Notes under the pieces: generated by a model
The model's input: the letters and a program-made list of their open reading frames with translations, nothing else
What the model was told of the DNA's origin: nothing
The model's database searches: none
From: a virus
Lineage: Duplodnaviria > Heunggongvirae > Uroviricota > Caudoviricetes
DNA: 22,079 bases
Virus record (IMG/VR): IMGVR_UViG_3300014519_000074
Strand: one strand, 5' to 3'
Translations under genes and position numbers: made by a program
In this document: positions 1,893 to 21,045 of the stretch, one piece after another
Layout: every line of letters begins with the position of its first letter
How positions within the stretch are numbered: position 1 is the first letter of the stretch

Positions 1893-4800
1893 GCGTCGTA
1901 TCCCCCCTGATCGCTGTAGTTACTCCTGGCTTTTGCCTTCAGCCTGCGTTCACGTTCATCAAGCTGGCGTGCCACCTCCCGCGCAATATCCTGCGCACTT
2001 TGTCCTGGCTGCGTCTGAATGATGATCTGCGTCGGTGCCTCAATCCGTTGAACGAGCGGCACAGTGGCTGCGCGACTCACAATTGCTTCTCCACCTTTCG
2101 CGGGAAGTGCCAAAGGGTGCAACGGTGGAAGCTCTGCTGGCGCGGCAGCAACGCCCATCATTCCGGCAACAACGGCAGCCAGTGCAGCTGTATTTCTCCG
2201 GCTGGTCACATTTGCCGGGCCGTTAACAATTTCCGGCCCGTTTTCACCGACGATGCCAAACTGCCCTCGCGGGATATACCCGCCGCTGTCATACATCCCC
2301 GCAAAGCCATATCCCCATGATGGAAAACCACCCGATGGCATCATCACTTTACCGTCTGCATTCACCGTCGCAGGTTGCTGACGCGTCACGCTTTCCGGCA
2401 GTTTTGCCTTTGCGGCCTCTTTACTGACAATGCCGAGCTTCTCCAGCAACCAGGAAACGCCGGATTTCAGGGAGTCCAGCGGATGCATGACCATATTCAG
2501 CCCTTCCGCCAGTGCCTCCCCGAATCGCCGCCCCATTGCCGCTGCACTCTGCAGTTCGGCAGAGGTCGACTTAACGGGCGTCAGCAGATCAGTAAACCAG
2601 CCCCACAGCGCCTGTACTTTGTCGCCAATCCACTGAAACACAGGCTTAAGTGGTTCGAATGCAGCACTGATGGGACCTGCCGCCGCTTTGAATCCTTCCA
2701 CCACGCCACCGAGAAATGCGGTGATGGGTTGCCAGTATTTCCAGACAACCAGCGCCACGCCCGCCAGTGCAGTAACCACAAGACCTATCGGACTGAGCAG
2801 AGCACCTAACAGACCAGATATGGCATACAGGGCAACGCGCAGCATCGCCAGCGGACCAGATGCAAGCACACGAAGCACCGCGCCTGCGGCAGCCAGTCCA
2901 CCGCGCAGTACCGCCAGAGGATTCATAAACATCACAGCAACAGCACGTAAACCGGATAATCCAGACCGCAAAAGTGCAACCGGCGCACCTGCTACAGTTT
3001 TAAGGACATTTCCCGTCAGTGATGCCGTGCGGCGCAAAGACGACAACGGCGCAGTAAGTAAACCTGCGGCGTTGCCCGATGAAGCAAGCCCGCGTCGCAG
3101 CAGTGCCAGTGGTGCGCCAGCCAGCCAGGACAACGCGCTGCTGGTTCGAGTTACTGCTGCCGTAACGGAAGATAACGTTTTGATACCCAGCACAGAGAAT
3201 CCCAGACGGATCACTGCCAGCGGCCCCAGCACTGCAGCCAGCGCCACCGCTAAGGTGCCGAGGCCGACGGTAACCGCAGCCACAACAGCCGATGCTTTCA
3301 TCAGTGTGCCTGTCAGTTCCGGGTTAGCTTCCACCCAGCGACGCAACGCCCCCGTGACGCTTTTCACCGTGTACAGAATATCCATCAGCGGCTGGCGCAG
3401 CGTTTCGCCCAGGCTGCTGAAGGTGTTCTGCGCTCCGGTTTTGACCAGCAACCACTGCGCAGAAAGTGAATCCTTGTTAATGTCGGATTCTTTCTGCATG
3501 GAGCCGAGCGCATCATTGCCCGCTGTCAGTTTTAACTGACGCTGCAGTTCCGGCAGGTTGTTTGCCAGTTTCGCCGCGTCATCGCCAAACTCTTTACCAA
3601 ACAACATAGTCATGGCAGACAGGCGCTTGTCCTGCGGCAGCGCGTTTACCTTCTCCAGCACGCGCTGGATGGTTCCCATCGCATCCTTCGTCATCTGCTT
3701 TTCAATCACTTCAGGATTGAGTTTCAGCAGATTCATCCCTTCAAAGAAACTTTTGCTTTGCATGGTGGCAATGGACAATTCACACACCATCGCGTTTGCT
3801 GCACTGGCTGCAACCTCTGGCGCAGCGCCCAGTGTCAGGAAGGTGGAACCCAGCGCCGCCGCTTTACGATAATCCAGACGGTCAGCCACACCGCCCAGAC
3901 GTTGCATCACATCAATGATGTCTGCCCCTTTCGACATGGCGTTATCATCCAGATAGTTCAGCGCATCACCGAGCTGTTCAATATTGCGGGTGGGGATTTT
4001 GTAGAGCTGGGCGATTTTCCCCAGACTTTCTGACAGTTCATCCGCTGGCAGCTCAAAGGCTGTTGCCGCCTTTGCTGCCGTACTGGCGAAGGCCAGCAGG
4101 TCACGTTTCTGATCTTCCCAACTGTCGTCAGGGTTTGCGACGTTCATGCGCGCGCCACCTTCAACCAGTGCAGCGAAATCCACAGCACCGTTTTCCATCG
4201 GCAACTGTTCGCTGGCAGCCTTGATGGCATCCTGCATTTCATAAAAACGTGCAGTGCGGTTGCCATTATCGTCACGCAGACCATTGACCTGCTTTGCCAC
4301 ACCTTTCATGGCATCTTCCATGCTGGTATAGCTTTTTACTGCCGCCATCACTGGTGCGCCCATTGCCAGCCCTGCAGCCGTGGTGGTGGCTCCGGCACCT
4401 GCAATACGATCACGCACCTCCAGCGAACGGGCATAACTGGCACGCGCTGCATTCATCCTGCGCTGAGCTTCCCCCAGTCGCTTCAGCCGCGCCTCCTGTT
4501 TCGAAAGTTCCTGGTTATAACGTGATGTTTCACGGGCTAAACGGGCAGTTGCTCCCGCATCGTCTTTCGCAGAAATTCCCGCCCGGTACAGTTCAGCACG
4601 CACAAGCGCCGTCTGCTGCTGCAGCTTTTTCTGGCGTTCTTCCAGGCGCTGAACAGCCAGCCGTTGACGGCCCAGAGCAACAACCTGACGTTGCGAAGGC
4701 GGCCCCATCGCTCCCAGTTCCTGACTGAGCAAATTTGCACGCTGGCGGGCATAGTTCAGCCTGTCGCCTAATTTCTGATTTTCTGCCTGCAGCTTTCGGA

Positions 4801-5395: not shown

Positions 5396-5449
5396 TTTGC
5401 TGTCCTGTCAATTGGGTTCTGGCGCGGTATCCCGCGCCGTTCAGATATA

Positions 5450-5965
5450 TCAGAGGCCGAGGGCGTTGCGGTGCGCTTCCATCAGGTCCACACCGTCCAC
5501 AATTTCCACCATGTTGATAAGGTCCACTTCATAGAGCACCTCACCATTGATGGTCAGCTTCGCGTAGCTGTTGGTACTGGTCACTTTGGTGGTGTTGCTT
5601 TCGCCCGTCTTCCACTCGCCGGAATCCACTTCTTTGTGACGTCCACGCACGACAAGCTCCACGGCCTGCACTTCCCCGGTATCGTCACGCTGAATAGAGC
5701 CGGTAAAGCGCAGCTGGATGCCATCCACCGTGGCTTTACCCATCTGTTTAAACAGCAGCAATTCAGTACCACCAATGGAAAATTCTGTATCCAGCGCACT
5801 GTCATCAAGCCCCAGATCCACATCCACCGCACCCGGCATTCCGCCGCCGCGATACTTCTCATATTTGCGGGTAAATTTCGGCAGCGTCAGCGACTCAACG
5901 ATCCCCTGCCAGTTGTTCCCGTCGTTAAACAGGTTCAGGTGTTTTAATTTGCGTGGTAAAGCCAT
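5450..5965 (-). CDS. FII: Tail tube protein FII
   Basis: 171-aa ORF MALPRKLKHLNLFNDGNNWQG...; size and sequence as for P2 gpFII; lies immediately downstream of the sheath 3' fragment. Confidence 0.9.
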   Translation of the reverse strand: MALPRKLKHLNLFNDGNNWQGIVESLTLPKFTRKYEKYRGGGMPGAVDVDLGLDDSALDTEFSIGGTELLLFKQMGKATVDGIQLRFTGSIQRDDTGEVQAVELVVRGRHKEVDSGEWKTGESNTTKVTSTNSYAKLTINGEVLYEVDLINMVEIVDGVDLMEAHRNALGL

Positions 5966-5974
5966 GTTGTCCCC

Positions 5975-6195
5975 TTACGCGCTGACCTGGCTGGCGAAAT
6001 TAACCAGGTACTGATCGGTGATGCGCTGACGCAGCATCAGGTTTTCAAGTGGCGGCACTGGCGTGTAGTCGTAGTCGATGGTGAGTTTTCCGGCTTTCAG
6101 CGTGTCTTTGTCGTTCACCGACTCATCCAGCCAGCAATCACCACCAATGAGATAGCCCTGACTGACCAGGCTGCGCATTTTGGCGCGGATACCTT
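5975..6195 (-). pseudogene. FI: Tail sheath FI, 3' fragment (C-terminal ~73 codons), separated from the rest of the gene by an inversion
   Basis: Minus-strand translation ...G|[71 protein letters not shown] matches the sheath C-terminus (P2 gpFI ...[31 protein letters not shown]...). The [13 protein letters not shown] prefix of the tracked ORF is junction/cassette-derived, not sheath. Confidence 0.85.
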
Positions 6196-6207
6196 GGTTT
6201 GGGAGAA
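6182..6207. other. Hybrid recombination site (inversion junction 2): good gix/cix-like half-site TTCTCCCAAACC + AA core (minus-strand reading) fused to sheath-derived GGTATCCGCGCC
   Basis: Plus strand GGCGCGGATACC TT GGTTTGGGAGAA. The cassette-side half is identical to the half-site at 8045..8056; the other half is FI coding sequence. Confidence 0.7.
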
Positions 6208-6543
6208 TTATCTCTGGCTGGCACTGCATCGGGTGTCATTGGCCTGAATGGGTATGTAACGATCCCGTTAATTATTTCAGGTTCCCGGAGAACACTGATT
6301 ATTCAGTGGGGGCAGGCGAGATTTGGTGGGTCTGGTGGTGAAGATGCCGGATATCTTAACGATTTTCCTTTTGCCTTTCCGTCAGCATGTTATGGAATGA
6401 TAGTTAGTCATGTGGGGCATACACCTTCAGGCGCAGGAATCCTGTCGGCTTCTGCAATTACATCAAATCAGTTCCGCGGTTTTTCAAGCATAGCGACTGC
6501 TGTAAACGCTGTATTAGGTCGTTATATCGCTATAGGGGTGTAA
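6196..6543 (+). CDS. Tail fibre C-terminal variable cassette (Sv-like); no start codon or promoter of its own, in frame with the H constant part across the crossover site in the reconstructed orientation
   Basis: Open frame begins at the crossover core ([16 protein letters not shown]...[10 protein letters not shown]...GRYIAIGV) and is followed directly by a tail-fibre assembly gene; arrangement matches Mu/P1 Sv-U cassettes. Confidence 0.75.
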
Positions 6544-6544
6544 T

Positions 6545-6982
6545 ATGTTTTATAGTCCATCTTTAAACATTTTTGTGAATCCTGCACTTAAGGATGATTA
6601 CATTAATGCAAATTCATGGCCAGATGATGCTCTGGCTGTCAGTGATGATGTTTATAATGAATTTGCAATCAATACGCCTCCAGATGACAAAATTCGTGTT
6701 GCAGGAAAAAATGGATTACCCACATGGGCACTAATACCTCCACCATCACATGAAGAACTTATTCAACAGGCAGAATCAGAAAGGCAATTATTGCTTAATC
6801 AGGCCAACGAATACATGAACAGTAAACAATGGCCCGGTAAAGCCGCTATTGGTCGTCTGAAAAGCGAGGAACTGGCGCAATATAATTCGTGGCTGGATTA
6901 TCTGGACGCACTGGAGCTAGTCGATACTACCGGTGCGCCAGATATTGAATGGCCTACGCCTCCGGCAGTTCAGGCCAGATGA
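6545..6982 (+). CDS. Tail fibre assembly chaperone (Tfa, U-like) for the Sv cassette
   Basis: 145-aa ORF starting at the stop of Sv (TAAtATG); C-terminus ...GAPDIEWPTPP resembles the conserved Tfa C-terminal motif; converges on and overlaps U' by 29 bp. Confidence 0.8.
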   Translation: MFYSPSLNIFVNPALKDDYINANSWPDDALAVSDDVYNEFAINTPPDDKIRVAGKNGLPTWALIPPPSHEELIQQAESERQLLLNQANEYMNSKQWPGKAAIGRLKSEELAQYNSWLDYLDALELVDTTGAPDIEWPTPPAVQAR

Positions 6983-7556
6983 CATCCGGCGCGGTGCTGG
7001 TATCTGTTGCCGCCACCGCGTCAATGTAATCCAGCACGGCGTTAAGTCGGGTTGTTTCTGCCTGCGTCAACTTCCGTCCGGCCTGTAATTTCAGCTGAAT
7101 CAGACTAATGGAAGCCATTGCTGCATCAATCAGTGACTGGCGCTGTGCTTCTGCCGCGTCTACTGCGGCACTATGCTGTGCCTCAGTATCCGTCACCCAT
7201 TTCTCACCATCCCATTTATCATATGGCGTTAACGGGGCGATAGTGGTTGTATTTTCAGGGTAATCACCCGGAGCTGTGATTTCTTTCGATTCTCCTGTTT
7301 CGGTGCTATAGATGATTTCACCGCGATGGTCTGGCACATATTCCCATGAGTTAAAATCTGCAGAACGGCAGATTGCATAACCAGCTTTATGTGTAACTGG
7401 TGCATCTAAACAAGAACATGCCGGGATACCGACGCCAACCGCAAGATATTCAGTTGATGTGGAAATATATTCCCGCGTTTCACCATCATAATTATAAATG
7501 GTAATGTCTCCCGCTTTTATGGCAATGAGTTCGTTATTTAATACGGCTTTATTCAT
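6954..7556 (-). CDS. Tail fibre assembly chaperone (Tfa, U'-like) for the Sv' cassette
   Basis: 200-aa ORF directly downstream of Sv' on the minus strand; C-terminus ...TAPDVIWPELPEA parallels that of the opposing Tfa. Confidence 0.8.
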   Translation of the reverse strand: MNKAVLNNELIAIKAGDITIYNYDGETREYISTSTEYLAVGVGIPACSCLDAPVTHKAGYAICRSADFNSWEYVPDHRGEIIYSTETGESKEITAPGDYPENTTTIAPLTPYDKWDGEKWVTDTEAQHSAAVDAAEAQRQSLIDAAMASISLIQLKLQAGRKLTQAETTRLNAVLDYIDAVAATDTSTAPDVIWPELPEA

Positions 7557-8098
7557 CAGGCAGCCCTCACGATATAGTTAAATGCAATATTCCGTGGACG
7601 GGTTTCATTTATCCCATATGCTGTTGTTCTCTGATTCCCGACAAAATATCCATTTGGATTAGAAGATACAGAATAATCATCAAAATCAAGTGGGCTATCA
7701 GCACCCGGCGTCAGGCTTGCAATATATCCTCTTCCCATAACTTCTGATGCTGGTATTTCTTTTGTACGATAATCACTAACTCTGAAGAGCTGCCCTTGGT
7801 GGGTGTGTGATTCCACTCCTCCATTCTGAAGACTTAGCAAGGCACGTACAGCATCAATACCACGCCCGTCATCCCAGCCACGAATAAACTCACCACGTAA
7901 ATCAGGCAATTTATTTGTCGGATAAGCCTTTGCCAGTTCCGGGTATTCTTCAGCAGAAAAAGCGGCACCGTTGCATTTCAGCCAGCCTGTTGGCGGAGTG
8001 GCTGAAGGCCACGGAACAGGCACCCCAACCGGTAATGCAGAGCCTTCTCCCAAACCAACGTTTAAGAAAATGCAGAGGTAACAGCTAACTGGCATCAT
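7556..8098 (-). CDS. Alternative tail fibre C-terminal variable cassette (Sv'-like); functional portion begins at the crossover site (about 8056) and would be fused to H after cassette inversion
   Basis: Translation ...FLNVGLGEGSALPVGVPVPWPSATPPTGWLKCNGAAF...HTHQGQLF... resembles the tail-collar-type receptor-binding C-termini of Mu S'/P1 fibres; its 5' end contains the gix-like site, and the GLGE codons are identical to the start of the Sv cassette. Confidence 0.75.
   Translation of the reverse strand: MMPVSCYLCIFLNVGLGEGSALPVGVPVPWPSATPPTGWLKCNGAAFSAEEYPELAKAYPTNKLPDLRGEFIRGWDDGRGIDAVRALLSLQNGGVESHTHQGQLFRVSDYRTKEIPASEVMGRGYIASLTPGADSPLDFDDYSVSSNPNGYFVGNQRTTAYGINETRPRNIAFNYIVRAA
8045..8070. 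other. Intact gix/cix/hix-like 26-bp recombination site: TTCTCCCAAACC AA CGTTTAAGAAAA
   Basis: 12-2-12 imperfect dyad resembling DNA-invertase crossover sites (hix/gix/cix as remembered); lies at the Sv' 5' end just upstream of the invertase gene; its left half is an inverted copy of the half-site at 6196..6207. Confidence 0.7.
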
Positions 8099-8125
8099 CT
8101 CCGGTTTTTATTCAGGGGGATGATC

Positions 8126-8692
8126 ATGCTTATTGGCTATGTACGCGTGTCAACAAATGACCAGAACACCGATTTGCAACGTAATGCACTGAACTGCGCG
8201 GGATGTGAGCAGATTTTTGAGGACAAAATCAGTGGCACTAAGTCCGACAGACCGGGGCTGAAAAAACTACTCAGGACACTATCGGCAGGAGACACGCTGG
8301 TTGTCTGGAAGCTGGACAGGTTGGGGCGCAGTATGCGGCATCTTGTTACGCTGATAGAAGAGTTGCGCCAGCGTGGTGTGAATTTCAGAAGCCTGACTGA
8401 CAGTATTGATACCAGTACCCCAATGGGCCGTTTCTTTTTTCATGTCATGGGTGCCCTGGCTGAAATGGAACGCGAACTGATAGTTGAACGTACCAGGGCA
8501 GGGCTGGCTGCAGCTCGTGCCAAAGGCAGAGTAGGTGGACGCCGTCCTAAGTTGACCACCGAACAGTGGGCACAGATTGGGCGTTTACTCGAGGCCGGAG
8601 AATCAAGACAGCGTATTGCACTGATTTTTGATGTAGGCGTTTCTACCATTTATAGAAAATTTCCGGCAAATAAGATCAATGAATCCCCCTGA
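8126..8692 (+). CDS. Serine DNA invertase of the Gin/Pin/Cin/Hin family (ORF track start 8120; ATG at 8126 gives MLIGYVRVST...)
   Basis: Translation MLIGYVRVSTNDQNTDLQRNALNCAGCEQIFEDKISGTKSDRPGLKKLL...DTLVVWKLDRLGRSMRHL...GRFFFHVMGALAEMERELIVERT...GGRRPKLT...VGVSTIYRKFP is near-identical in pattern to Gin/Cin/Pin, with the catalytic Ser in the YVRVST motif and a C-terminal helix-turn-helix; GGGGGA Shine-Dalgarno upstream. Confidence 0.95.
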   Translation: MLIGYVRVSTNDQNTDLQRNALNCAGCEQIFEDKISGTKSDRPGLKKLLRTLSAGDTLVVWKLDRLGRSMRHLVTLIEELRQRGVNFRSLTDSIDTSTPMGRFFFHVMGALAEMERELIVERTRAGLAAARAKGRVGGRRPKLTTEQWAQIGRLLEAGESRQRIALIFDVGVSTIYRKFPANKINESP

Positions 8693-8740
8693 ATCAGCAT
8701 TATGTTGATTATCCCTGCAAGCAGACAAATACCGTTATTT

Positions 8741-8758
8741 TGTGTGAATAACGACACA
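8741..8758. promoter_or_regulatory. Candidate Ogr-type activator site (TGT-N12-ACA) of a PF-like late promoter, about 80 bp upstream of the FI start
   Basis: TGTGTGAATAACGACACA seen in the invertase-FI intergenic region; P2 late promoters carry TGT-N12-ACA dyads centred near -55. The motif is short and expected by chance a few times in 22 kb. Confidence 0.4.
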
Positions 8759-8834
8759 ACTGCGCTTAGCTGTTTGTCAGGCACAATCACTTCAACATAG
8801 GGCGAAGCCTAATCCAATCAGGAGGTTCGCCACT

Positions 8835-9797
8835 ATGGCTCAGGATTACCACCACGGGGTGCGCGTTGTTGAAGTCAACGAAGGTACCCGATCTATTACC
8901 ACGGTGAGCACCGCCATCGTGGGTATGGTCTGCACGGGCGATGATGCCGATGCAAAAATGTTTCCTCTTAATAAACCCGTGCTGATCACTGATGTGCTGA
9001 CTGCCAGCGGTAAAGCGGGTGAGTCAGGTACTCTGGCCCGTTCGCTGGATGCCATCGCTGACCAGGCAAAACCCGTGACCATTGTTGTGCGTGTGCCGCA
9101 GGGTGAAACGGAAGACGAAACCACGACCAATATCATCGGCGCAGTGACTGCAGAAGGTAAAAAAACAGGTATGAAAGCCCTGTTATCTGCCCAGTCACAG
9201 CTCGGCGTTAAACCGCGCATTCTCGGCGTGCCAGGCCACGACACCAAGGCGGTAGCTACTGAGTTGCTGAGCGTGGCGCAAAGCCTGCGTGGATTTGCTT
9301 ACCTGTCAGCGTATGGCTGCAAGACAGTGCAGGAGGCGATCACTTACCGCGAAAACTTCAGCCAGCGCGAAGGGATGCTGATCTGGCCTGACTTTACTGG
9401 CTGGGACACGGTGCTGAATGCCGAAGCAACGGCATATGCCACCGCCCGTGCGCTTGGTCTGCGCGCCAAAATTGACGAGCAGACCGGATGGCACAAAAGC
9501 CTGTCCAACGTGGGCGTGAACGGTGTCACCGGAATTTCTGCAGATGTGTTCTGGGATCTGCAGGACCCGGCAACCGATGCAGGTCTGCTGAACCAGAACG
9601 ACGTCACCACGCTTGTGCGTAAAGACGGTTTCCGCTTCTGGGGTTCCCGCTGCCTGAGTGATGACCCGCTCTTTGCCTTCGAAAACTACACCCGCACGGC
9701 GCAGGTGCTGATGGACACGATGGCAGAAGCACACATGTGGGCGGTGGATAAACCGCTTAACCCGTCGCTGGCCCGCGACATTATCGAAGGTATGTGA
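8835..9797 (+). pseudogene. FI: Tail sheath FI, 5' part (N-terminal 320 codons), truncated by the inversion junction; opposite strand to all flanking late genes
   Basis: Translation MAQDYHHGVRVVEVNEGTRSITTVSTAIVGMVCTG...FENYTRTAQVLMDTMAEAHMWAVDKPL...ARDIIEG is colinear with the P2 sheath N-terminal ~320 residues; it ends with M-stop contributed by junction sequence; AGGAGG Shine-Dalgarno upstream. Confidence 0.88.
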
Positions 9798-9800
9798 GAA
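9775..9800. other. Hybrid recombination site (inversion junction 1): sheath-derived GCGACATTATCG + AA core + gix-like half-site GGTATGTGAGAA from gene H
   Basis: Joining FI 8835..9788 to the reverse complement of 6193..5975 restores ...[15 protein letters not shown]... in frame; the H-side half-site encodes the H residues LLTYL. Confidence 0.7.
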
Positions 9801-10836
9801 GACCAGCTACATCCTTTCCACTCAAATTGGTAAGCGTATTGTCCAGCGGTTGTTTACCTGCCAGCGCATTAAGCATTGTCGTGGCAAAGTTCGGATCATT
9901 CCCCAGTGCCGCCGCCAGTTCGTTCAGTGTATCCAGTGCAGCAGGTGCAGAACCCACCATTCCTGCAATCGCCGATTTCACAAAAGCCGTAGTGGCAATC
10001 TGTGTATTGTTGACCGACTGCGCCGCCGTGGGGGCTGTAGGCGTTCCGGTGAGTGCCGGACTCGACAACGGTGCTTTTAGTGCCAGCGCATTGTTAATGG
10101 TGGTACTGAAATTCGGATCATTGTTAATGGCTGCGGCTATTTCTTTCAGCGTGTCCAGCGTGGCTGGCGCACCATTAATAAGGGCCGTCAGTGCCGCCTG
10201 TACAAACGCAGTGGTCGCAACCTGCGTGGTATTATTCCCCGCCGCTGGCGTTGGCGCTTTGGGGGTTCCGGTAAATGTCGGGCTGGCTTTTGGCGCGTAC
10301 TGTGAATGCGGGTCCGGTGCGGCAAGATGTTTTGCCATCTGATCATCCGCGTACACCTTCAGCTCCAGTGCCTTGTCATCCACATACTTGCGGGTTGCCA
10401 GCACTACAGCAGGGTCGATTTTCAGGGTGATATTGTCCGTGCTGCTGGTAATCAGCACCATGCGCACGGTCTGAGTGCGCCCGCTACCTTCAGCCAGTTG
10501 CGGCTTATAGCTTTCCGGGCAGTTGCCCACGGCAATCAATGCACCTGACTCATCAAACAGGCCCACTTCACGTATCCACCAACCGCCCTCGTTTTCAGGG
10601 ATCACCTGTTCGGCAATAATCTGGCTGCTGTTCTGCGGGTCGATATAAAGCATATTCAGCGCAGCCCGGCGTTTCTCATTTACCAGTGCCGTCTGCTTTG
10701 CGTCCGGCGTTGGCAATACTCCACCGCCATCGCCCACCGCCATATGGGTAATTTTTAGCGGCACACCGAGCGCGGCGGCGCTGGCAAGTTTCGCCGCGCC
10801 AATATCCGTCAGCAGGGTATAAAATTTTGTGCTCAT
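9781..10836 (-). CDS. H: Tail fibre protein H, constant N-terminal part (351 aa), ending in a junction-derived stop and lacking a C-terminal receptor-binding cassette in this orientation
   Basis: N-terminus MSTKFYTLLTDIGAAKLASAAA...; two tandem ~70-aa fibre repeats (...NTQVATTAFV...DPNF...); last codons ...LLTYLR* cross the junction into FI-derived sequence. Confidence 0.85.
   Translation of the reverse strand: MSTKFYTLLTDIGAAKLASAAALGVPLKITHMAVGDGGGVLPTPDAKQTALVNEKRRAALNMLYIDPQNSSQIIAEQVIPENEGGWWIREVGLFDESGALIAVGNCPESYKPQLAEGSGRTQTVRMVLITSSTDNITLKIDPAVVLATRKYVDDKALELKVYADDQMAKHLAAPDPHSQYAPKASPTFTGTPKAPTPAAGNNTTQVATTAFVQAALTALINGAPATLDTLKEIAAAINNDPNFSTTINNALALKAPLSSPALTGTPTAPTAAQSVNNTQIATTAFVKSAIAGMVGSAPAALDTLNELAAALGNDPNFATTMLNALAGKQPLDNTLTNLSGKDVAGLLTYLR
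9844..10281. repeat. Tandem duplication (2 x ~215 bp) encoding two copies of a ~72-aa tail-fibre shaft repeat within H
   Basis: Protein repeats TGTPKAPTPAAGNNTTQVATTAFVQAALTALINGAPATLDTLKEIAAAINNDPNFSTTINNALALKAPL and TGTPTAPTAAQSVNNTQIATTAFVKSAIAGMVGSAPAALDTLNELAAALGNDPNFATTMLNALAGKQPL; the nucleotide copies both contain TTCGGATCATT. Confidence 0.7.
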
Positions 10837-11438
10837 GGATTCACTCTCATTGTGTCAATAACATGGACCGCCCCGCCTTCATGCGCGGTGCCACCGGAAA
10901 TAATCGTTTCGTTGATATACGGATAGATCGTGATTTCTTCGCCAAGATAGCTGGCGGCTCCCACCCAATGCGGGCCGCTGGTCTGCAGATTGATGGACAT
11001 GCCGATCATGTGGCGGCTACATGGTTTGGCATCGCTTATCAGTCGCTCAAGTTCCAGATAGGTATCTTCAGTGATGCCCTGGTCCTGCACGCCGATATCC
11101 AGGCGAAACGTGCCCGGTGTTTCTCCGGTCTGCCACCACTCAATAATGCGGATCAGGAATCCGAACGGCTCCACCACCCGCCGCACGGCACTGGTGGTCC
11201 CTTTATGCTGATGAATATAAAAAGCATCCTTCACCACCTGGCGCTTGACGCTTTCTGTCCAGCCCTCGTCCCAGCGATCCACAGAGAACGCCCAGGCGAG
11301 ATAAGGCAGGAAACTGACCGGACAGGTTGCCGGATTCCACAAATCACGAAGCGGCACCTGCAGATCAGAAATCCCGCTGCAGGTTTGCGCCAGTCGGCAC
11401 TCCAGTGGTGTTGAACCCGGTGGCAGCAGACTATTCAT
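10833..11438 (-). CDS. I: Baseplate/tail fibre attachment protein I
   Basis: 201-aa ORF between J and H; position and size as P2 gpI; 4-bp overlap with the H start. Confidence 0.8.
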   Translation of the reverse strand: MNSLLPPGSTPLECRLAQTCSGISDLQVPLRDLWNPATCPVSFLPYLAWAFSVDRWDEGWTESVKRQVVKDAFYIHQHKGTTSAVRRVVEPFGFLIRIIEWWQTGETPGTFRLDIGVQDQGITEDTYLELERLISDAKPCSRHMIGMSINLQTSGPHWVGAASYLGEEITIYPYINETIISGGTAHEGGAVHVIDTMRVNP

Positions 11439-12339
11439 CCGTTCCTCCGTTGGTTACGCTCCACTGCGTACATGATGCCGCCTGTGTTTTGTTCAGGACC
11501 ACATCCGCCAGAGGAGAAGCCAGCTCCACACGCTGCACCCCCTCAACATGCAGGGCGGCAAAGATGGCGCTACGGCGAATATCCCGACCAAGACGCGTCT
11601 GACTGGCGATGTACTTCTGCAGGCTGGCTTTTGCCGCTGCCATTACCGGCTCTGCTTCCGGTCCAGGATAGAGAAAAATGGTGGCTTCCACGCGATACGG
11701 GATGATTTCTGCGCTGCGAACCGTAAGACGGTCAGCCACCGGGCGGACGTTCTCACTGTTCAGAGCTTTTTCCACCACGTCCAGCAGGTCTTTTTCTGCA
11801 GTTCCATCGCCTTCGCGGCTAAGGACAGTCAGCACCACCTCTGCAGGTGCCGGGCTGGTTGCACTGGCATCCGCCACCCGACCGTCGGCGCTTCGGGCAT
11901 GAAATTCATAAGCTGCAGTTGGCCCCGCAACAGAAAGCCCTTCAAAGGCTGCAGGCACACGCAGGCGCAACGCTTCATCGCTTTCCATCACAGCTGCAAC
12001 GGGCGGCACAGCATCATTATCAGCAGGCGTCACCGTCAGGCGTGTCACGTTGTAGTTGGCAGCGAGCTGGTCAAGATCGCCGCCCATCGCGTAAGCCACC
12101 ATCACCGCCTGCGCGGCTTCGTTAATGCGCTGGCGCAGAAGCAACTCACGGTAAGCGTTCTCCTGCAACAATTTAGTGGCGGGTTCAGATTCCAGTTCCA
12201 GCGTGCGGATCACTGCTTCCTGCTCATCTTTCGGATGAAGCGCCACAAATTCTGCCTTGCGTTCGGCAAGCAGCGTCTCAAAGTCCGGCACATCCACAAT
12301 CTGCGGTGCAGGCAACTGCGAAAGGTCAATCACTGCCAT
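11431..12339 (-). CDS. J: Baseplate assembly protein J (likely start MAVIDLSQLPAP at 12339; ORF track extends to 12378)
   Basis: Translation MAVIDLSQLPAPQIVDVPDFETLLAERKAEF...IRTLELESEP is colinear with P2 gpJ (MPIIDLNQLPAP...). Confidence 0.85.
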   Translation of the reverse strand: MAVIDLSQLPAPQIVDVPDFETLLAERKAEFVALHPKDEQEAVIRTLELESEPATKLLQENAYRELLLRQRINEAAQAVMVAYAMGGDLDQLAANYNVTRLTVTPADNDAVPPVAAVMESDEALRLRVPAAFEGLSVAGPTAAYEFHARSADGRVADASATSPAPAEVVLTVLSREGDGTAEKDLLDVVEKALNSENVRPVADRLTVRSAEIIPYRVEATIFLYPGPEAEPVMAAAKASLQKYIASQTRLGRDIRRSAIFAALHVEGVQRVELASPLADVVLNKTQAASCTQWSVTNGGTDE

Positions 12340-13306: not shown

Positions 13307-13324
13307 TGTATCAGTGCTGATACA
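13307..13324. promoter_or_regulatory. Candidate Ogr-type site of a PV-like late promoter; part of a perfect 20-bp palindrome TTGTATCAGTGCTGATACAA (13306..13325)
   Basis: TGT-N12-ACA dyad centred about 55 bp upstream of the V start codon in the S-V intergenic space; the perfect dyad extends beyond the core motif. Confidence 0.5.
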
Positions 13325-19214: not shown

Positions 19215-19232
19215 TGTACCGACAACCACACA
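19215..19232. promoter_or_regulatory. Candidate Ogr-type site (TGTACCGACAACCACACA) in the divergent O / P late promoter region
   Basis: TGT-N12-ACA dyad in the 142-bp O-P intergenic region; a second such motif lies at 19273..19290, overlapping the P start codon. Confidence 0.4.
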
Positions 19233-19278
19233 AACCGCAGGCGGGGAAAGCCTTCATTCAAGGTTGTAGGTTTGTGCC

Positions 19279-21045
19279 ATGAACACCACACTGACACCCG
19301 CAGATCTCGATCCCCGTCGGCAGGCCATGCTGCTGTACTTTCAGGGATACCGCGTAGCCCGCATTGCTGAAATGCTGGGCGAGAAAGTTGCAACCGTTCA
19401 CAGCTGGAAAAAACGCGACAAGTGGGGTGACTATGGGCCGCTGGATCAGATGCAGCTCACCACCGCCGCACGCTACTGCCAGCTCATCATGAAGGAGCAC
19501 AAAGAAGGGAAAGATTTCAAAGAGATTGACCTGCTGGCGCGCCAGTCGGAGCGCCACGCGCGGATCGGCAAGTTTAACAATGGCGGCAACGAAGCCGACT
19601 TAAACCCTAACGTCGCCAACCGCAATAAAGGCCCACGCCGTCAGCCGGAAAAGAATGTTTTCACCGATGAGCAGATTGAGAAGCTGGAAGAAATCTTCCA
19701 TTCCTCCATGTTCAACTACCAGCGCCACTGGTGGGAAGCCGGAAAAACCAACCGCATCCGCAACCTGCTGAAGTCACGCCAGATCGGCGCGACCTTTTAC
19801 TTTGCCCGTGAAGCCCTGATTGACGCCCTGCTTACCGGACGTAACCAGATTTTCCTTTCCGCCAGCAAGGCACAGGCCCACGTCTTTAAGCAGTACATCA
19901 TCGACTTCGCCAAAGAAGTGGGGGTGGAGTTGAAAGGCGATCCGATGGTGCTTCCTAACGGGGCCACGCTTTACTTCCTCGGCACCAATGCCCGCACGGC
20001 CCAGAGTTATCACGGCAACCTGTATCTGGATGAATATTTCTGGATACCGAAATTCCAGGAGCTGCGCAAAGTGGCTTCCGGTATGGCTATTCACAAAAAA
20101 TGGCGACAAACCTATTTTTCCACGCCATCCAGCCTGACACACAGTGCTTATCCGTTCTGGTCCGGTGCGCTGTTCAACCGTGGGCGCAACAAGGCCGACA
20201 AGGTGGACATCGACCTGTCCCACAGCAATCTGGCCCCCGGCCTGCTGTGCGCAGACGGGCAATACCGCCAGATAGTCACCGTGGAAGATGCGGTGCGCGG
20301 CGGCTGTAACCTGTTCGACCTTGACCAGTTGCGCATGGAGTACAGCCCGGACGAATACCAGAACCTGCTGATGTGCGAGTTTGTGGACGATCTCGCGTCC
20401 GTATTTCCGCTCAGCGAGCTGCAGGCGTGCATGGTGGACAGCTGGGAAGTCTGGACCGACTTTCATGCACTGGCTCTGCGCCCGTTTGGCTGGCGCGAAG
20501 TGTGGATCGGTTATGACCCGGCAAAAGGTACGCAAAACGGCGACAGCGCCGGATGCGTGGTGGTGGCACCGCCAGCCGTGCCTGGTGGTAAGTTCCGCAT
20601 TCTTGAGCGTCACCAGTGGCGCGGGATGGACTTCCGCGCCCAGGCTGACGCCATCAAAAAACTGACCGAACAGTACAACGTGACCTATATCGGTATCGAC
20701 TCAACCGGCGTTGGTCACGGGGTTTATGAGAACGTGAAAGCGTTCTTTCCTGCCGTCCGGGAGTTTGTCTACAACCCCAATGTTAAAAACGCCCTGGTAC
20801 TCAAGGCCTACGACATTATCAGCCACCGCCGTCTGGAGTTTGACGCCGGGCACACCGACATTGCGCAGTCATTTATGGCAATCCGTCGCGCTACCACTGC
20901 CAGTGGCAACCGCCCGACCTATGAAGCCAGCCGCAGCGAAGAAGCCAGCCATGCCGATCTGGCCTGGGCAACAATGCACGCACTGTTTAACGAACCGCTG
21001 CAGGGCGAGTCCGCCAATACCAGCAATATTGTGGAGATTTTTTGA
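19279..21045 (+). CDS. P: Terminase large (ATPase) subunit P
   Basis: 588-aa ORF; ...LKSRQIGATFYFAREALIDALLTGRNQIFLSASKAQAHVFKQYIIDFA... (Walker-A-like QIGAT) ...SRSEEASHADLAWATMHAL..., colinear with P2 gpP. Confidence 0.93.
   Translation: MNTTLTPADLDPRRQAMLLYFQGYRVARIAEMLGEKVATVHSWKKRDKWGDYGPLDQMQLTTAARYCQLIMKEHKEGKDFKEIDLLARQSERHARIGKFNNGGNEADLNPNVANRNKGPRRQPEKNVFTDEQIEKLEEIFHSSMFNYQRHWWEAGKTNRIRNLLKSRQIGATFYFAREALIDALLTGRNQIFLSASKAQAHVFKQYIIDFAKEVGVELKGDPMVLPNGATLYFLGTNARTAQSYHGNLYLDEYFWIPKFQELRKVASGMAIHKKWRQTYFSTPSSLTHSAYPFWSGALFNRGRNKADKVDIDLSHSNLAPGLLCADGQYRQIVTVEDAVRGGCNLFDLDQLRMEYSPDEYQNLLMCEFVDDLASVFPLSELQACMVDSWEVWTDFHALALRPFGWREVWIGYDPAKGTQNGDSAGCVVVAPPAVPGGKFRILERHQWRGMDFRAQADAIKKLTEQYNVTYIGIDSTGVGHGVYENVKAFFPAVREFVYNPNVKNALVLKAYDIISHRRLEFDAGHTDIAQSFMAIRRATTASGNRPTYEASRSEEASHADLAWATMHALFNEPLQGESANTSNIVEIF

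What the first reader, a model, noticed from the sequence alone, without database searches (positions are those of the whole stretch)
9775..10836. Tail fibre gene H is uncoupled from both receptor-binding cassettes
The H constant region (351 codons, with two tandem shaft repeats) runs into FI-derived sequence at the junction and stops after ...LLTYLR. In the reconstructed orientation the same frame continues through the crossover site into the Sv cassette ([14 protein letters not shown]...); after cassette flipping it would continue into Sv' (LLTYL-GLGEGSALPVGV...). Both cassettes start with identical GGTTTGGGAGAA (GLGE) codons. So the fibre has two alternative tips by design but none in the present state.
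Basis: seen in the sequence. Interest (0 to 1): 0.6.

Follow-up and report, generated by a model that had tools for sequence, protein, structure and literature searches.

The report
Invertase misfire split fibre and sheath genes
In this decayed P2-like prophage of E. coli, the DNA invertase that normally swaps two tail-fibre tips appears once to have recombined with a weak look-alike site inside the tail-sheath gene. That flipped 3.6 kb and left the fibre gene without a tip and the sheath gene in two pieces, which is a neat but ordinary kind of prophage decay.

Summary
ORF 9781..10836 (-) encodes the 351-aa constant part of a P2-type tail fibre (H). It crosses a hybrid crossover site into antisense sheath (FI) sequence and stops at ...LLTYLR*. 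Re-inverting 6195..9787 in silico restores a 465-aa H-Sv fibre and a 390-aa FI, both identical to the annotated proteins of E. coli N32. The result is colinear with that prophage over all 22,079 nt, with 6 mismatches and no indel. Joining H to the other cassette gives the 516-aa H-Sv' fibre of strain CE10.

The cause is a conservative 3.6-kb inversion between the true H-side crossover site and a weak site in FI that shares ATACC + core TT. This is the signature of secondary ("quasi") site recombination by a Gin/Cin/Pin-type invertase. The prophage had already lost its early region to an IS3 element.

The broken junction is in 2 of 5,426 complete E. coli genomes, where PGAP calls H and FI pseudogenes. 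The exact truncated H is indexed in 298 blocks of public assemblies. Within this clone the cassette segment occurs in both orientations on near-identical backgrounds, so the invertase still flips it at a hybrid site, next to a sheath stub.

This is a natural example of a known failure mode, of modest interest.

The parts
9781..10836 (-). Truncated tail fibre gene H. It encodes the constant N-terminal and shaft part (351 aa) and ends LLTYLR* inside antisense FI sequence.
   Evidence: Pfam PF12571 covers residues 1-150 at E 7e-65. Two shaft repeats of about 70 aa. PGAP marks it a pseudogene in AR_0013 and AF57.
9775..9800 (.). Hybrid crossover site B: GCGACATTATCG|AA|GGTATGTGAGAA. The left half comes from FI and the right half is the H-side half of the original site ixL (TTCTCACATACC on the - strand).
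   Evidence: The junction is present in only 2 of 5,426 complete E. coli genomes.
8835..9797 (+). N-terminal 319 codons of tail sheath gene FI, now ending ...IIEGM* in antisense H sequence.
   Evidence: Pfam sheath domains. Joined to 6193..5975 it gives a 390-aa FI identical to that of N32.
8741..8758 (+). TGT-N12-ACA element 94 nt upstream of the FI start, the putative Ogr-dependent late promoter PF. It is carried on the inverted block.
   Evidence: Identification as PF rests on position plus my knowledge of P2 late promoters, so it is an inference.
8126..8692 (+). Serine DNA invertase (188 aa from the second ATG, 190 aa from 8120). It is Gin-like, with the catalytic Ser9 and a C-terminal HTH.
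   Evidence: Pfam PF00239 and PF02796. End-to-end alignment with Mu Gin 3UJ3, E 3e-93. AR_0013, CE10 and N32 all carry the same invertase protein accession, WP_000905010.1, and no SNP between the window and AR_0013 lies in this gene.
8045..8070 (.). Authentic crossover site C (ixR): TTCTCCCAAACC|AA|CGTTTAAGAAAA, between the Sv' cassette and the invertase gene.
7556..8056 (-). Sv' tip cassette (166 aa with a Collar domain), promoterless and without its own start.
   Evidence: PF07484. Similar to the T4 gp37 tip and gp12. Fused to H in CE10.
6954..7556 (-). U' (tfaE-like), the tail fibre assembly chaperone that goes with Sv'.
   Evidence: PF02413. Annotation.
6545..6982 (+). U, the tail fibre assembly chaperone that goes with Sv.
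   Evidence: PF02413.
6196..6543 (+). Sv tip cassette (115 aa, gp53-like C-terminal domain), now abutting the FI stub head to head.
   Evidence: PF21882. Fused to H in N32.
6182..6207 (.). Hybrid crossover site A: GGCGCGGATACC|TT|GGTTTGGGAGAA. The left half comes from FI and the right half is the cassette-side half of ixL.
   Evidence: It still recombines with site C: 6196..8056 is an exact reverse complement in AR_0013, AF57 and many assemblies.
5975..6193 (-). C-terminal 72 codons of FI, detached from their start and promoter.
   Evidence: PF17482 positions 48-104. PGAP pseudogene 'missing N-terminus'.

Best explanation
The window is the late-gene remnant (ogr to portal) of a P2/186-like prophage of E. 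coli. It carries a Gin/Cin/Pin-type tail-fibre switch laid out as H(constant) - ixL - [Sv U | U' Sv'] - ixR - invertase - FI.

In one lineage the invertase recombined the authentic site ixL (TTCTCACATACC TT GGTTTGGGAGAA) with a weak secondary site inside FI codons 315-322 (GCGACATTATCG AA GGTATCCGCGCC). That site has the same central dinucleotide in inverted orientation. The exchange was conservative and reciprocal, and it inverted 3.6 kb (6195..9787).

**Consequences**
- H ends after 350 native codons without a receptor-binding tip.
- FI is split into 319 + 72 codons.
- The putative late promoter PF now points away from FII-E-T-U-D and into antisense H.
- Both tip cassettes sit silent next to the FI stub.
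- The invertase is intact and keeps flipping the cassette segment between hybrid site A and ixR, so the switch now runs to no effect.

**Shown:** the anatomy; exact reversibility in silico; full-length fibres in relatives; both flip states within the broken lineage; prior loss of the early region.

**Inferred:** that the invertase catalysed the event; that the tail module is non-functional; that the event persisted because the prophage was already dead.
For: **The inversion is exact and reciprocal**
- Re-inversion of 6195..9787 restores H-Sv (465 aa) and FI (390 aa), both identical to the N32 proteins. The result is colinear with the N32 prophage over all 22,079 nt, with 6 mismatches and no indel.
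- H-Sv' (516 aa) is identical to the CE10 fibre.

**The breakpoints point to the invertase**
- They fall on the 2-bp core of the 26-bp ixL. The FI partner has the same core and shares ATACCTT.
- The invertase is Gin-like along its full length, with Ser9 and an HTH.

**The switch still turns**
- AR_0013 and AF57 carry the same FI|H junction with 6196..8056 exactly reverse-complemented.
- Both states recur in independent assemblies on near-identical backgrounds. The junction-specific 84-aa ORF is indexed in 96 blocks, against 298 blocks for the truncated H.

**The prophage was already dead**
- N32 and AR_0013 share the identical portal|IS3 junction, and the replication region is absent in both.

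**The junction is confined to this clone**
- It is absent from 50,697 phage records and 72,556 plasmid records, and present in only 2 of 5,426 complete E. coli genomes.

**Precedent**
- Normal P2-like prophage fibre switching and the 26-bp consensus are described in PMC4134206. Use of secondary crossover sites by Cin is stated in PMC4270481. PMC4134206 also cites Iida & Hiestand-Nauer 1986 and 1987.
Against: - No enzyme assay was done, so catalysis by this invertase (or by a related one acting in trans) is inferred from breakpoint position only.
- The FI site is a poor match to the half-site consensus: 13 of 24 positions on a permissive score. Of 2,637 AA/TT-core 26-mers in the window, 96 score at least as well. 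Sequence alone therefore does not explain why this site was used.
- A naive scan did not find the two Fis sites of an enhancer in the invertase gene.
- The order 'prophage death first, inversion second' assumes N32 is ancestral-like and not a revertant.
Confidence: 0.85

Rival explanations
1. Programmed three-site switch. The FI site would be a genuine third crossover site, and the 3.6-kb inversion a reversible OFF state. That state would silence fibre, sheath and the FII-D operon together in a domesticated late-gene module.
For: - Both hybrid sites keep one good half-site and the correct core, so A x B reversal is formally possible.
- Hybrid site A is demonstrably active with site C.
- Three-repeat shufflon-like arrangements exist in another P2-like prophage (PMC4272514).
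Against: - The FI site sequence is 100% conserved in hundreds of genomes, but the junction occurs in only 2 of 5,426 complete genomes and in none of the phage or plasmid records.
- Both of those genomes share the IS3|int' junction, which no other complete genome carries as a single piece, consistent with one clone.
- The FI site scores no better than 96 other sites in the window.
- The prophage was already without replication genes.
- No revertant was identified.
Confidence: 0.06
2. Invertase-independent illegitimate recombination. A 7-bp inverted microhomology (ATACCTT) mediated the inversion, for example by replication template switching.
For: The two parental sites share exactly 7 bp at the junction, and the FI site otherwise matches the invertase consensus poorly.
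Against: - The H-side breakpoint coincides with the 2-bp core of the authentic 26-bp site. A random breakpoint in the 3.6-kb interval would do so in about 0.2% of cases (my estimate: 7 of roughly 3,600 positions).
- The exchange is perfectly reciprocal with no base gained or lost.
- An active invertase is encoded about 1 kb away.
- Identity of the central dinucleotide is the published rule for quasi-site choice (Iida & Hiestand-Nauer 1987, cited in PMC4134206).
Confidence: 0.06
3. Assembly artefact. The inversion would be a misjoin at the inverted crossover repeats.
For: Invertible fibre segments are known to confuse assemblers (PMC4134206).
Against: - The FI|H junction shares only 7 bp between partners, far too little to misassemble.
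- It is identical in two complete chromosomes (AR_0013, AF57). It is also identical in every NCBI, ENA and Logan contig fetched and checked here, out of two sets of 24 contigs read by the look-ups.
Confidence: 0.01
4. The 351-aa H is a complete, functional short fibre, and the cassettes are expressed separately.
For: The ORF is open with a full N-terminal baseplate-attachment domain. PGAP names stand-alone cassette ORFs 'tail fiber protein'.
Against: - Near-identical prophages encode 465- and 516-aa fusions.
- The last codon and the stop are antisense FI.
- The cassettes have no promoter, and they have no start codon other than fortuitous TTG or ATG codons.
- The sheath gene is split by the same event.
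- No sequenced phage record has this junction.
Confidence: 0.02

Closest known systems
Phage Mu G segment / Gin (S-U versus S'-U')
   Same: A constant fibre 5' part is fused in frame, across a 26-bp crossover site, to one of two inverted tip cassettes. Each cassette is followed by its own assembly chaperone. The invertase gene lies just outside the segment, and the invertase here aligns end to end with Gin (E 3e-93).
   Different: Here the system sits in a P2/186-like prophage between H and FI. In the window the constant part is no longer adjacent to the invertible segment.
Phage P1 Cin recombination at secondary ('quasi-cix') crossover sites. Sources: Iida & Hiestand-Nauer 1986 and 1987, cited in PMC4134206; Arber's summary in PMC4270481; Rozsa et al. 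1995 J Bacteriol, from my own memory and not read here.
   Same: One authentic site recombines with a site of low overall similarity but identical central dinucleotide. This produces hybrid sites and gene fusions or disruptions. The breakpoint lies exactly at the core, and the hybrid sites remain substrates.
   Different: Those events were selected on plasmids or chromosomes in the laboratory. This one is a spontaneous event fixed in a clinical E. coli clone. It inactivates the element's own sheath and fibre genes.
Tail-fibre switches of E. coli P2-like prophages and e14 Pin. Examples: EC958 Phi1, Phi2 and Phi4 (PMC4134206); EPEC P2-like prophages and the three-repeat shufflon (PMC4272514).
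   Same: Same host, same gene order, same 26-bp site family (for example Phi2 TCCTCAATTACC TT GGTTTAGGAGAA) and the same Collar-domain cassettes. The intact relatives N32 and CE10 behave exactly like these.
   Different: In those systems every state yields a complete fibre. Here neither state does, and a non-fibre gene (FI) supplies one half of each outer site.
Phage P2 tail fibre H/G and the FI-FII-E-T-U-D operon
   Same: H N-terminal domain PF12571, I-H order, sheath and tube genes, and TGT-N12-ACA elements at the expected late-promoter positions.
   Different: As far as I know, P2 itself has a fixed H and G with no invertase. Here the H C-terminus is modular and currently missing.

Membership tests
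Din-family (Gin/Cin/Pin/Hin) invertible tail-fibre switch | Small serine recombinase with an N-terminal catalytic Ser and a C-terminal HTH, closely related to Gin, Cin, Pin and Hin | tested here: met
   PF00239 + PF02796. Residues 1-184 align with Mu Gin 3UJ3 at E 3e-93. Ser9 is present where the crystal construct has Ala.
Din-family (Gin/Cin/Pin/Hin) invertible tail-fibre switch | Two 26-bp crossover sites with a 2-bp core, in inverted orientation, flanking the cassettes | tested here: met
   Site A is 6182-6207 (core TT) and site C is 8045-8070 (core AA). The inner halves are identical (TTCTCCCAAACC). This is the top-listed (first) inverted repeat of the region. Site A is a hybrid whose outer half is FI-derived.
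Din-family (Gin/Cin/Pin/Hin) invertible tail-fibre switch | The segment is actually found in both orientations | tested here: met
   6196..8056 is an exact reverse complement in AR_0013 and AF57 and in contigs L006, L008 and L009, but matches the window in L007 and L014.
Din-family (Gin/Cin/Pin/Hin) invertible tail-fibre switch | Each orientation fuses the constant fibre part in frame to one cassette | tested here: not met
   In the window and in AR_0013 the segment abuts the FI stub, not H, and H stops at LLTYLR*. The feature is met in the intact relatives N32 (H-Sv) and CE10 (H-Sv'). The locus is therefore a broken member.
Din-family (Gin/Cin/Pin/Hin) invertible tail-fibre switch | Fis-dependent recombinational enhancer inside the 5' part of the invertase gene | tested here: inconclusive
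   A scan for GNNYRNNWNNYRNNC found two isolated matches and no pair 48 bp apart. Fis dependence cannot be tested here.
Secondary (quasi) site recombination by a Din invertase | One partner is an authentic site, with the breakpoint at its 2-bp core | tested here: met
   The reconstructed junction is TTCTCACATACC TT GGTTTGGGAGAA, the same as ixL of N32.
Secondary (quasi) site recombination by a Din invertase | The partner site has an identical central dinucleotide and low overall similarity | tested here: met
   The FI site GCGACATTATCG AA GGTATCCGCGCC has core AA, and its half-sites score 6 and 7 of 12. In the window, 96 of 2,637 AA/TT-core sites score at least as well.
Secondary (quasi) site recombination by a Din invertase | Conservative reciprocal exchange with no bases gained or lost | tested here: met
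   The re-inverted window matches the N32 prophage over 22,079 of 22,079 nt, with 6 mismatches and no indel.
Secondary (quasi) site recombination by a Din invertase | The event depends on the invertase | not testable with these tools
   This needs genetics or in vitro recombination.
P2-type tail fibre protein H | N-terminal baseplate-attachment domain PF12571 followed by a shaft and a C-terminal receptor-binding domain | tested here: not met
   The N-terminal domain and two shaft repeats are present. The C-terminal domain is absent from the ORF, and PGAP marks it 'missing C-terminus'.

The most novel reading that the evidence does not exclude
The FI site is a low-frequency but genuine third crossover site. 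On this reading the clone carries a reversible master OFF switch of a retained late-gene (tail and lysis) module. A x B inversion would restore the sheath, the fibre and the PF operon. C x B deletion would lock in an H-Sv' fibre.
Probability: 0.05. Interest if true: 0.65.

Novelty: new member of a known kind. Interest (0 to 1): 0.3.

Why it matters
- **A natural, fixed example.** It shows a DNA invertase damaging its own element by using a secondary site. This was seen in laboratory selections with Cin in the 1980s and 1990s, and I found no description of it in a wild prophage in the searchable literature.
- **A hint on site requirements.** In vivo, a crossover site that keeps one consensus half-site plus only the inner ATACC of the other half still supports flipping often enough to give both states among near-identical isolates.
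- **A practical point for annotation.** It explains three adjacent 'pseudogenes' and two orphan 'tail fiber protein' calls in RefSeq genomes of this clone. Prophage-completeness tools would score this region as a full tail module when it cannot make tails.

Tried and rejected
- **Frame errors of mine:**
  - A first Pfam call failed because I started the Sv frame one base too far along. The cassette starts at 6196 (fixed).
  - My first FI reconstruction was off by one base and gave a frameshift. The correct join, 8835..9788 + 6193..5975, gives the exact N32 protein.
- **DNA-level repeats:** Tandem Repeats Finder found no tandem repeat in H. The repeats show only at protein level.
- **Fis enhancer:** the consensus scan gave no convincing site pair.
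- **Degenerate junction pattern:**
  - I scanned for ACATTATCGAAGGTNNNNNGAGAA.
  - It gave 1 hit among one-genome-per-species contigs and 2 hits among JGI metagenome contigs.
  - All were unrelated chance matches with no similarity to the window. No independent recurrence was found there.
- **Phage and plasmid collections:** neither holds the junction.
- **Recurrent versus single flip:** a SNP table of 11 loci had too few informative sites to decide.
- **IS3|int' junction:**
  - It occurs as a single piece only in AR_0013 and AF57 among complete genomes.
  - It therefore could not order the second deletion relative to the inversion.
- **Late-promoter element:** the count of TGT-N12-ACA in the window equals the chance expectation (6 against 6.04). 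Only the positions of the elements are suggestive.
Full report
**What is in the window**

The 22,079-nt window is the late-gene block of a P2/186-like prophage. Almost all genes lie on the - strand: D, U, T, E, FII, then I, J, W, V, S, R, the lysis genes, and the capsid genes, with P and Q on the + strand.

It corresponds base for base to the stretch from ogr to the end of the portal gene in E. coli AR_0013. There the prophage sits in a LysR-family gene between sad and yneK. It is followed by an IS3-family element and a 5'-truncated integrase.

**Checking the observation**

- **H ORF.** ORF 9781..10836 (-) is 351 codons and ends ...LLTYLR*.
  - Residues 1-150 are the Phage_tail_fib N-terminal domain (E 7e-65).
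  - Residues about 190-335 are two tandem shaft units, 61% identical over 70 aa (E 3e-27). They are invisible at DNA level.
- **Sheath fragments.**
  - The terminal Arg codon and the stop are antisense to the end of ORF 8835..9797 (+). That ORF carries the sheath domains up to position 47 of the 104-position PF17482.
  - Positions 48-104 of that domain are encoded 3.6 kb away, at 5975..6193 (-).
- **Between the two sheath pieces.**

| Feature | Coordinates | Strand | Evidence |
|---|---|---|---|
| Sv tip cassette | 6196-6543 | + | gp53-like C-terminal domain |
| U chaperone | 6545-6982 | + | PF02413 |
| U' chaperone | 6954-7556 | - | PF02413 |
| Sv' tip cassette | 7556-8056 | - | Collar domain; similar to the T4 gp37 tip and gp12 |
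| Serine invertase | 8126-8692 | + | PF00239 + PF02796 |

- **Cassette starts.** Both cassettes begin with GGTTTGGGAGAA. This is the top-listed (first) inverted repeat of the region.

**The three sites**

Read on the + strand:

| Site | Coordinates | Sequence | Origin |
|---|---|---|---|
| A | 6182-6207 | GGCGCGGATACC\|TT\|GGTTTGGGAGAA | FI half + cassette half |
| C | 8045-8070 | TTCTCCCAAACC\|AA\|CGTTTAAGAAAA | authentic ixR |
| B | 9775-9800 | GCGACATTATCG\|AA\|GGTATGTGAGAA | FI half + H half |

Sites A and B are hybrids. Exchanging their halves gives two parental sites:
- TTCTCACATACC TT GGTTTGGGAGAA, a good member of the 26-bp site family tabulated for Mu, P1, e14, p15B and EC958 prophages (PMC4134206);
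- GCGACATTATCG AA GGTATCCGCGCC, which lies inside FI.

**Reconstruction**

- Inverting 6195..9787 gives an open 465-aa H-Sv, identical to the annotated fibre of strain N32.
- It also gives a 390-aa FI, identical to that of N32.
- The whole re-inverted window is colinear with the N32 prophage over 22,079 nt, with six mismatches and no indel. The rearrangement is therefore a perfectly conservative reciprocal inversion.
- Joining H through the core to the other cassette gives a 516-aa protein identical to the fibre of strain CE10.

His refutation criteria (a frameshift after reconstruction, or a complete 351-aa fibre in relatives) are not met.

**Distribution**

- **Complete E. coli genomes.**
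  - None of 5,426 genomes is colinear with 5400..11500.
  - The FI|H junction is in two of them, AR_0013 and the UK blood isolate AF57. About a thousand other genomes match one half or the other.
  - In both genomes PGAP marks FI-C, FI-N and H as pseudogenes.
  - The FI-C|Sv junction of the window is in none.
- **Relation of the window to AR_0013.**
  - AR_0013 and AF57 have FI-C|Sv' instead.
  - The window differs from AR_0013 by three third-codon-position SNPs plus an exact reverse complement of 6196..8056.
- **Phage and plasmid records.** None has the junction.
- **Wider assembly collection.**
  - The exact 351-aa product is indexed in 298 blocks.
  - The 84-aa ORF that exists only at the FI-C|Sv junction is indexed in 96 blocks.
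  - Contigs in both flip states are otherwise identical to each other. For example, L014 and L006 differ only by the flip.
  - The cassette segment is therefore still flipping in this clone, and it uses hybrid site A to do so.

**State of the prophage before the event**

- N32 has an intact FI and H-Sv, and it shares with AR_0013 the identical portal|IS3 junction.
- In N32 the IS3 element abuts a truncated CII gene. CI and int are still present, but no replication genes remain.
- AR_0013 has a further IS3-adjacent deletion of about 4.1 kb into int.
- If N32 is ancestral-like, the prophage was unable to replicate before the inversion. That would explain why a lesion lethal to a phage could be fixed.

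**Mechanism**

I infer that the Gin-like invertase catalysed ixL x FI-site recombination. It aligns end to end with Gin, has Ser9 and an HTH, and is the same protein accession in all four genomes.

The argument rests on four points:
- The H-side breakpoint is the core of the authentic site.
- The partner has the same central dinucleotide in inverted orientation. This is the published rule for Cin quasi-sites (Iida & Hiestand-Nauer 1987, cited in PMC4134206; Arber's account in PMC4270481).
- The exchange is conservative.
- The enzyme is demonstrably active in the lineage.

The FI site is a poor match. It scores 13 of 24 positions on a permissive score, and 96 of 2,637 AA/TT-core 26-mers in the window do as well. 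That fits a rare accident rather than a designed site. It shares ATACC + TT with the H half-site.

Microhomology-mediated inversion without the invertase cannot be strictly excluded. It would, however, have to hit the crossover core by chance.

**Consequences (inferred)**

- The fibre lacks any receptor-binding tip in either flip state.
- The sheath protein lacks its last 72 residues.
- A TGT-N12-ACA element lies 94 nt upstream of the FI start, at the position of the P2 PF late promoter. Similar elements lie upstream of V and in the O/P divergent region. This one travels with the inverted block.
- As a result FII-E-T-U-D would be left without their promoter, and PF transcription would run antisense into H-I-J-W-V.
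- In the window state, sites C and B are direct repeats. Their recombination would delete the invertase and FI-N and recreate an H-Sv' gene. No such product was seen in complete genomes.

**Comparison with known systems, and verdict**

The intact form is an ordinary member of the Gin/Cin/Pin tail-fibre switch family, as already described for E. coli P2-like prophages (PMC4134206, PMC4272514). The window is a broken member. Its defining in-frame coupling is tested here and not met, for a reason that itself belongs to a known class (secondary-site recombination).

I found no paper describing this particular event or a natural equivalent. The searchable library excludes much of the older subscription literature.

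The event is real, clonal and mechanistically explicable. It is of modest interest, as a natural illustration of invertase infidelity and of hybrid-site activity.

Noticed in passing
window 8741-8758 (+); also 13307-13324 and 19215-19290: TGT-N12-ACA elements sit at the positions expected for the P2 late promoters PF, PV and PO/PP. The PF-like one lies inside the inverted block. It would therefore now drive antisense transcription of H-I-J-W-V and leave FII-E-T-U-D without a promoter. The total count in the window equals chance (6 against 6.04), so only the positions are suggestive.
   Followed up: partly
window 8045-8070 and 9775-9800: In the window's flip state, sites C and B are direct repeats with the same AA core. 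Deletion between them would recreate the authentic H|Sv' site and a full 516-aa fibre gene. It would also remove the invertase and the FI N-terminal fragment. This was not found in complete E. coli genomes.
   Followed up: partly
window 8110-8121 and 8683-8694: A perfect 12-nt inverted repeat (ATTCAGGGGGAT / ATCCCCCTGAAT) brackets the invertase ORF almost exactly. It could be chance, since about one such pair is expected per 5 kb. It could also be a trace of the invertase gene having been a separate module.
   Followed up: no
L007/L015 (GCA_054724705.1), corresponding to window 4095-4190: One assembly of the same broken prophage has a 96-nt duplication in the tape-measure gene, giving 1,057 aa instead of 1,025 aa.
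   Followed up: no
window 3407, 9152, 10039: At 9152 and 10039 the window differs from every relative fetched that covers them, including the intact prophages N32 and CE10; at 3407 it differs only from AR_0013. All three changes are at third codon positions.
   Followed up: partly
window 7556-8098 (-) and 6199-6543 (+); L001 3800-4297: The silent cassettes are called as stand-alone genes. They use a fortuitous ATG in the spacer between site C and the invertase gene, or the TTG of GGT TTG GGA. RefSeq names them 'tail fiber protein' or 'gp53-like domain-containing protein'. These are probably annotation artefacts of invertible cassettes.
   Followed up: partly
L005 32209-33800 (AR_0013) against L010 (N32): The prophage decayed stepwise. 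An IS3-family element abuts the portal gene at the same base in both strains. AR_0013 has a further IS3-adjacent deletion of about 4.1 kb. It removes CII', CI, an ISEc53 copy, a ClbS-like gene and the 5' end of int.
   Followed up: yes
(public assemblies): The truncated H is indexed in 298 blocks of assemblies, and the ORF specific to the window state in 96. Roughly a third of assemblies of this clone may therefore be in the window's flip state. The clone's sequence type was not determined.
   Followed up: partly
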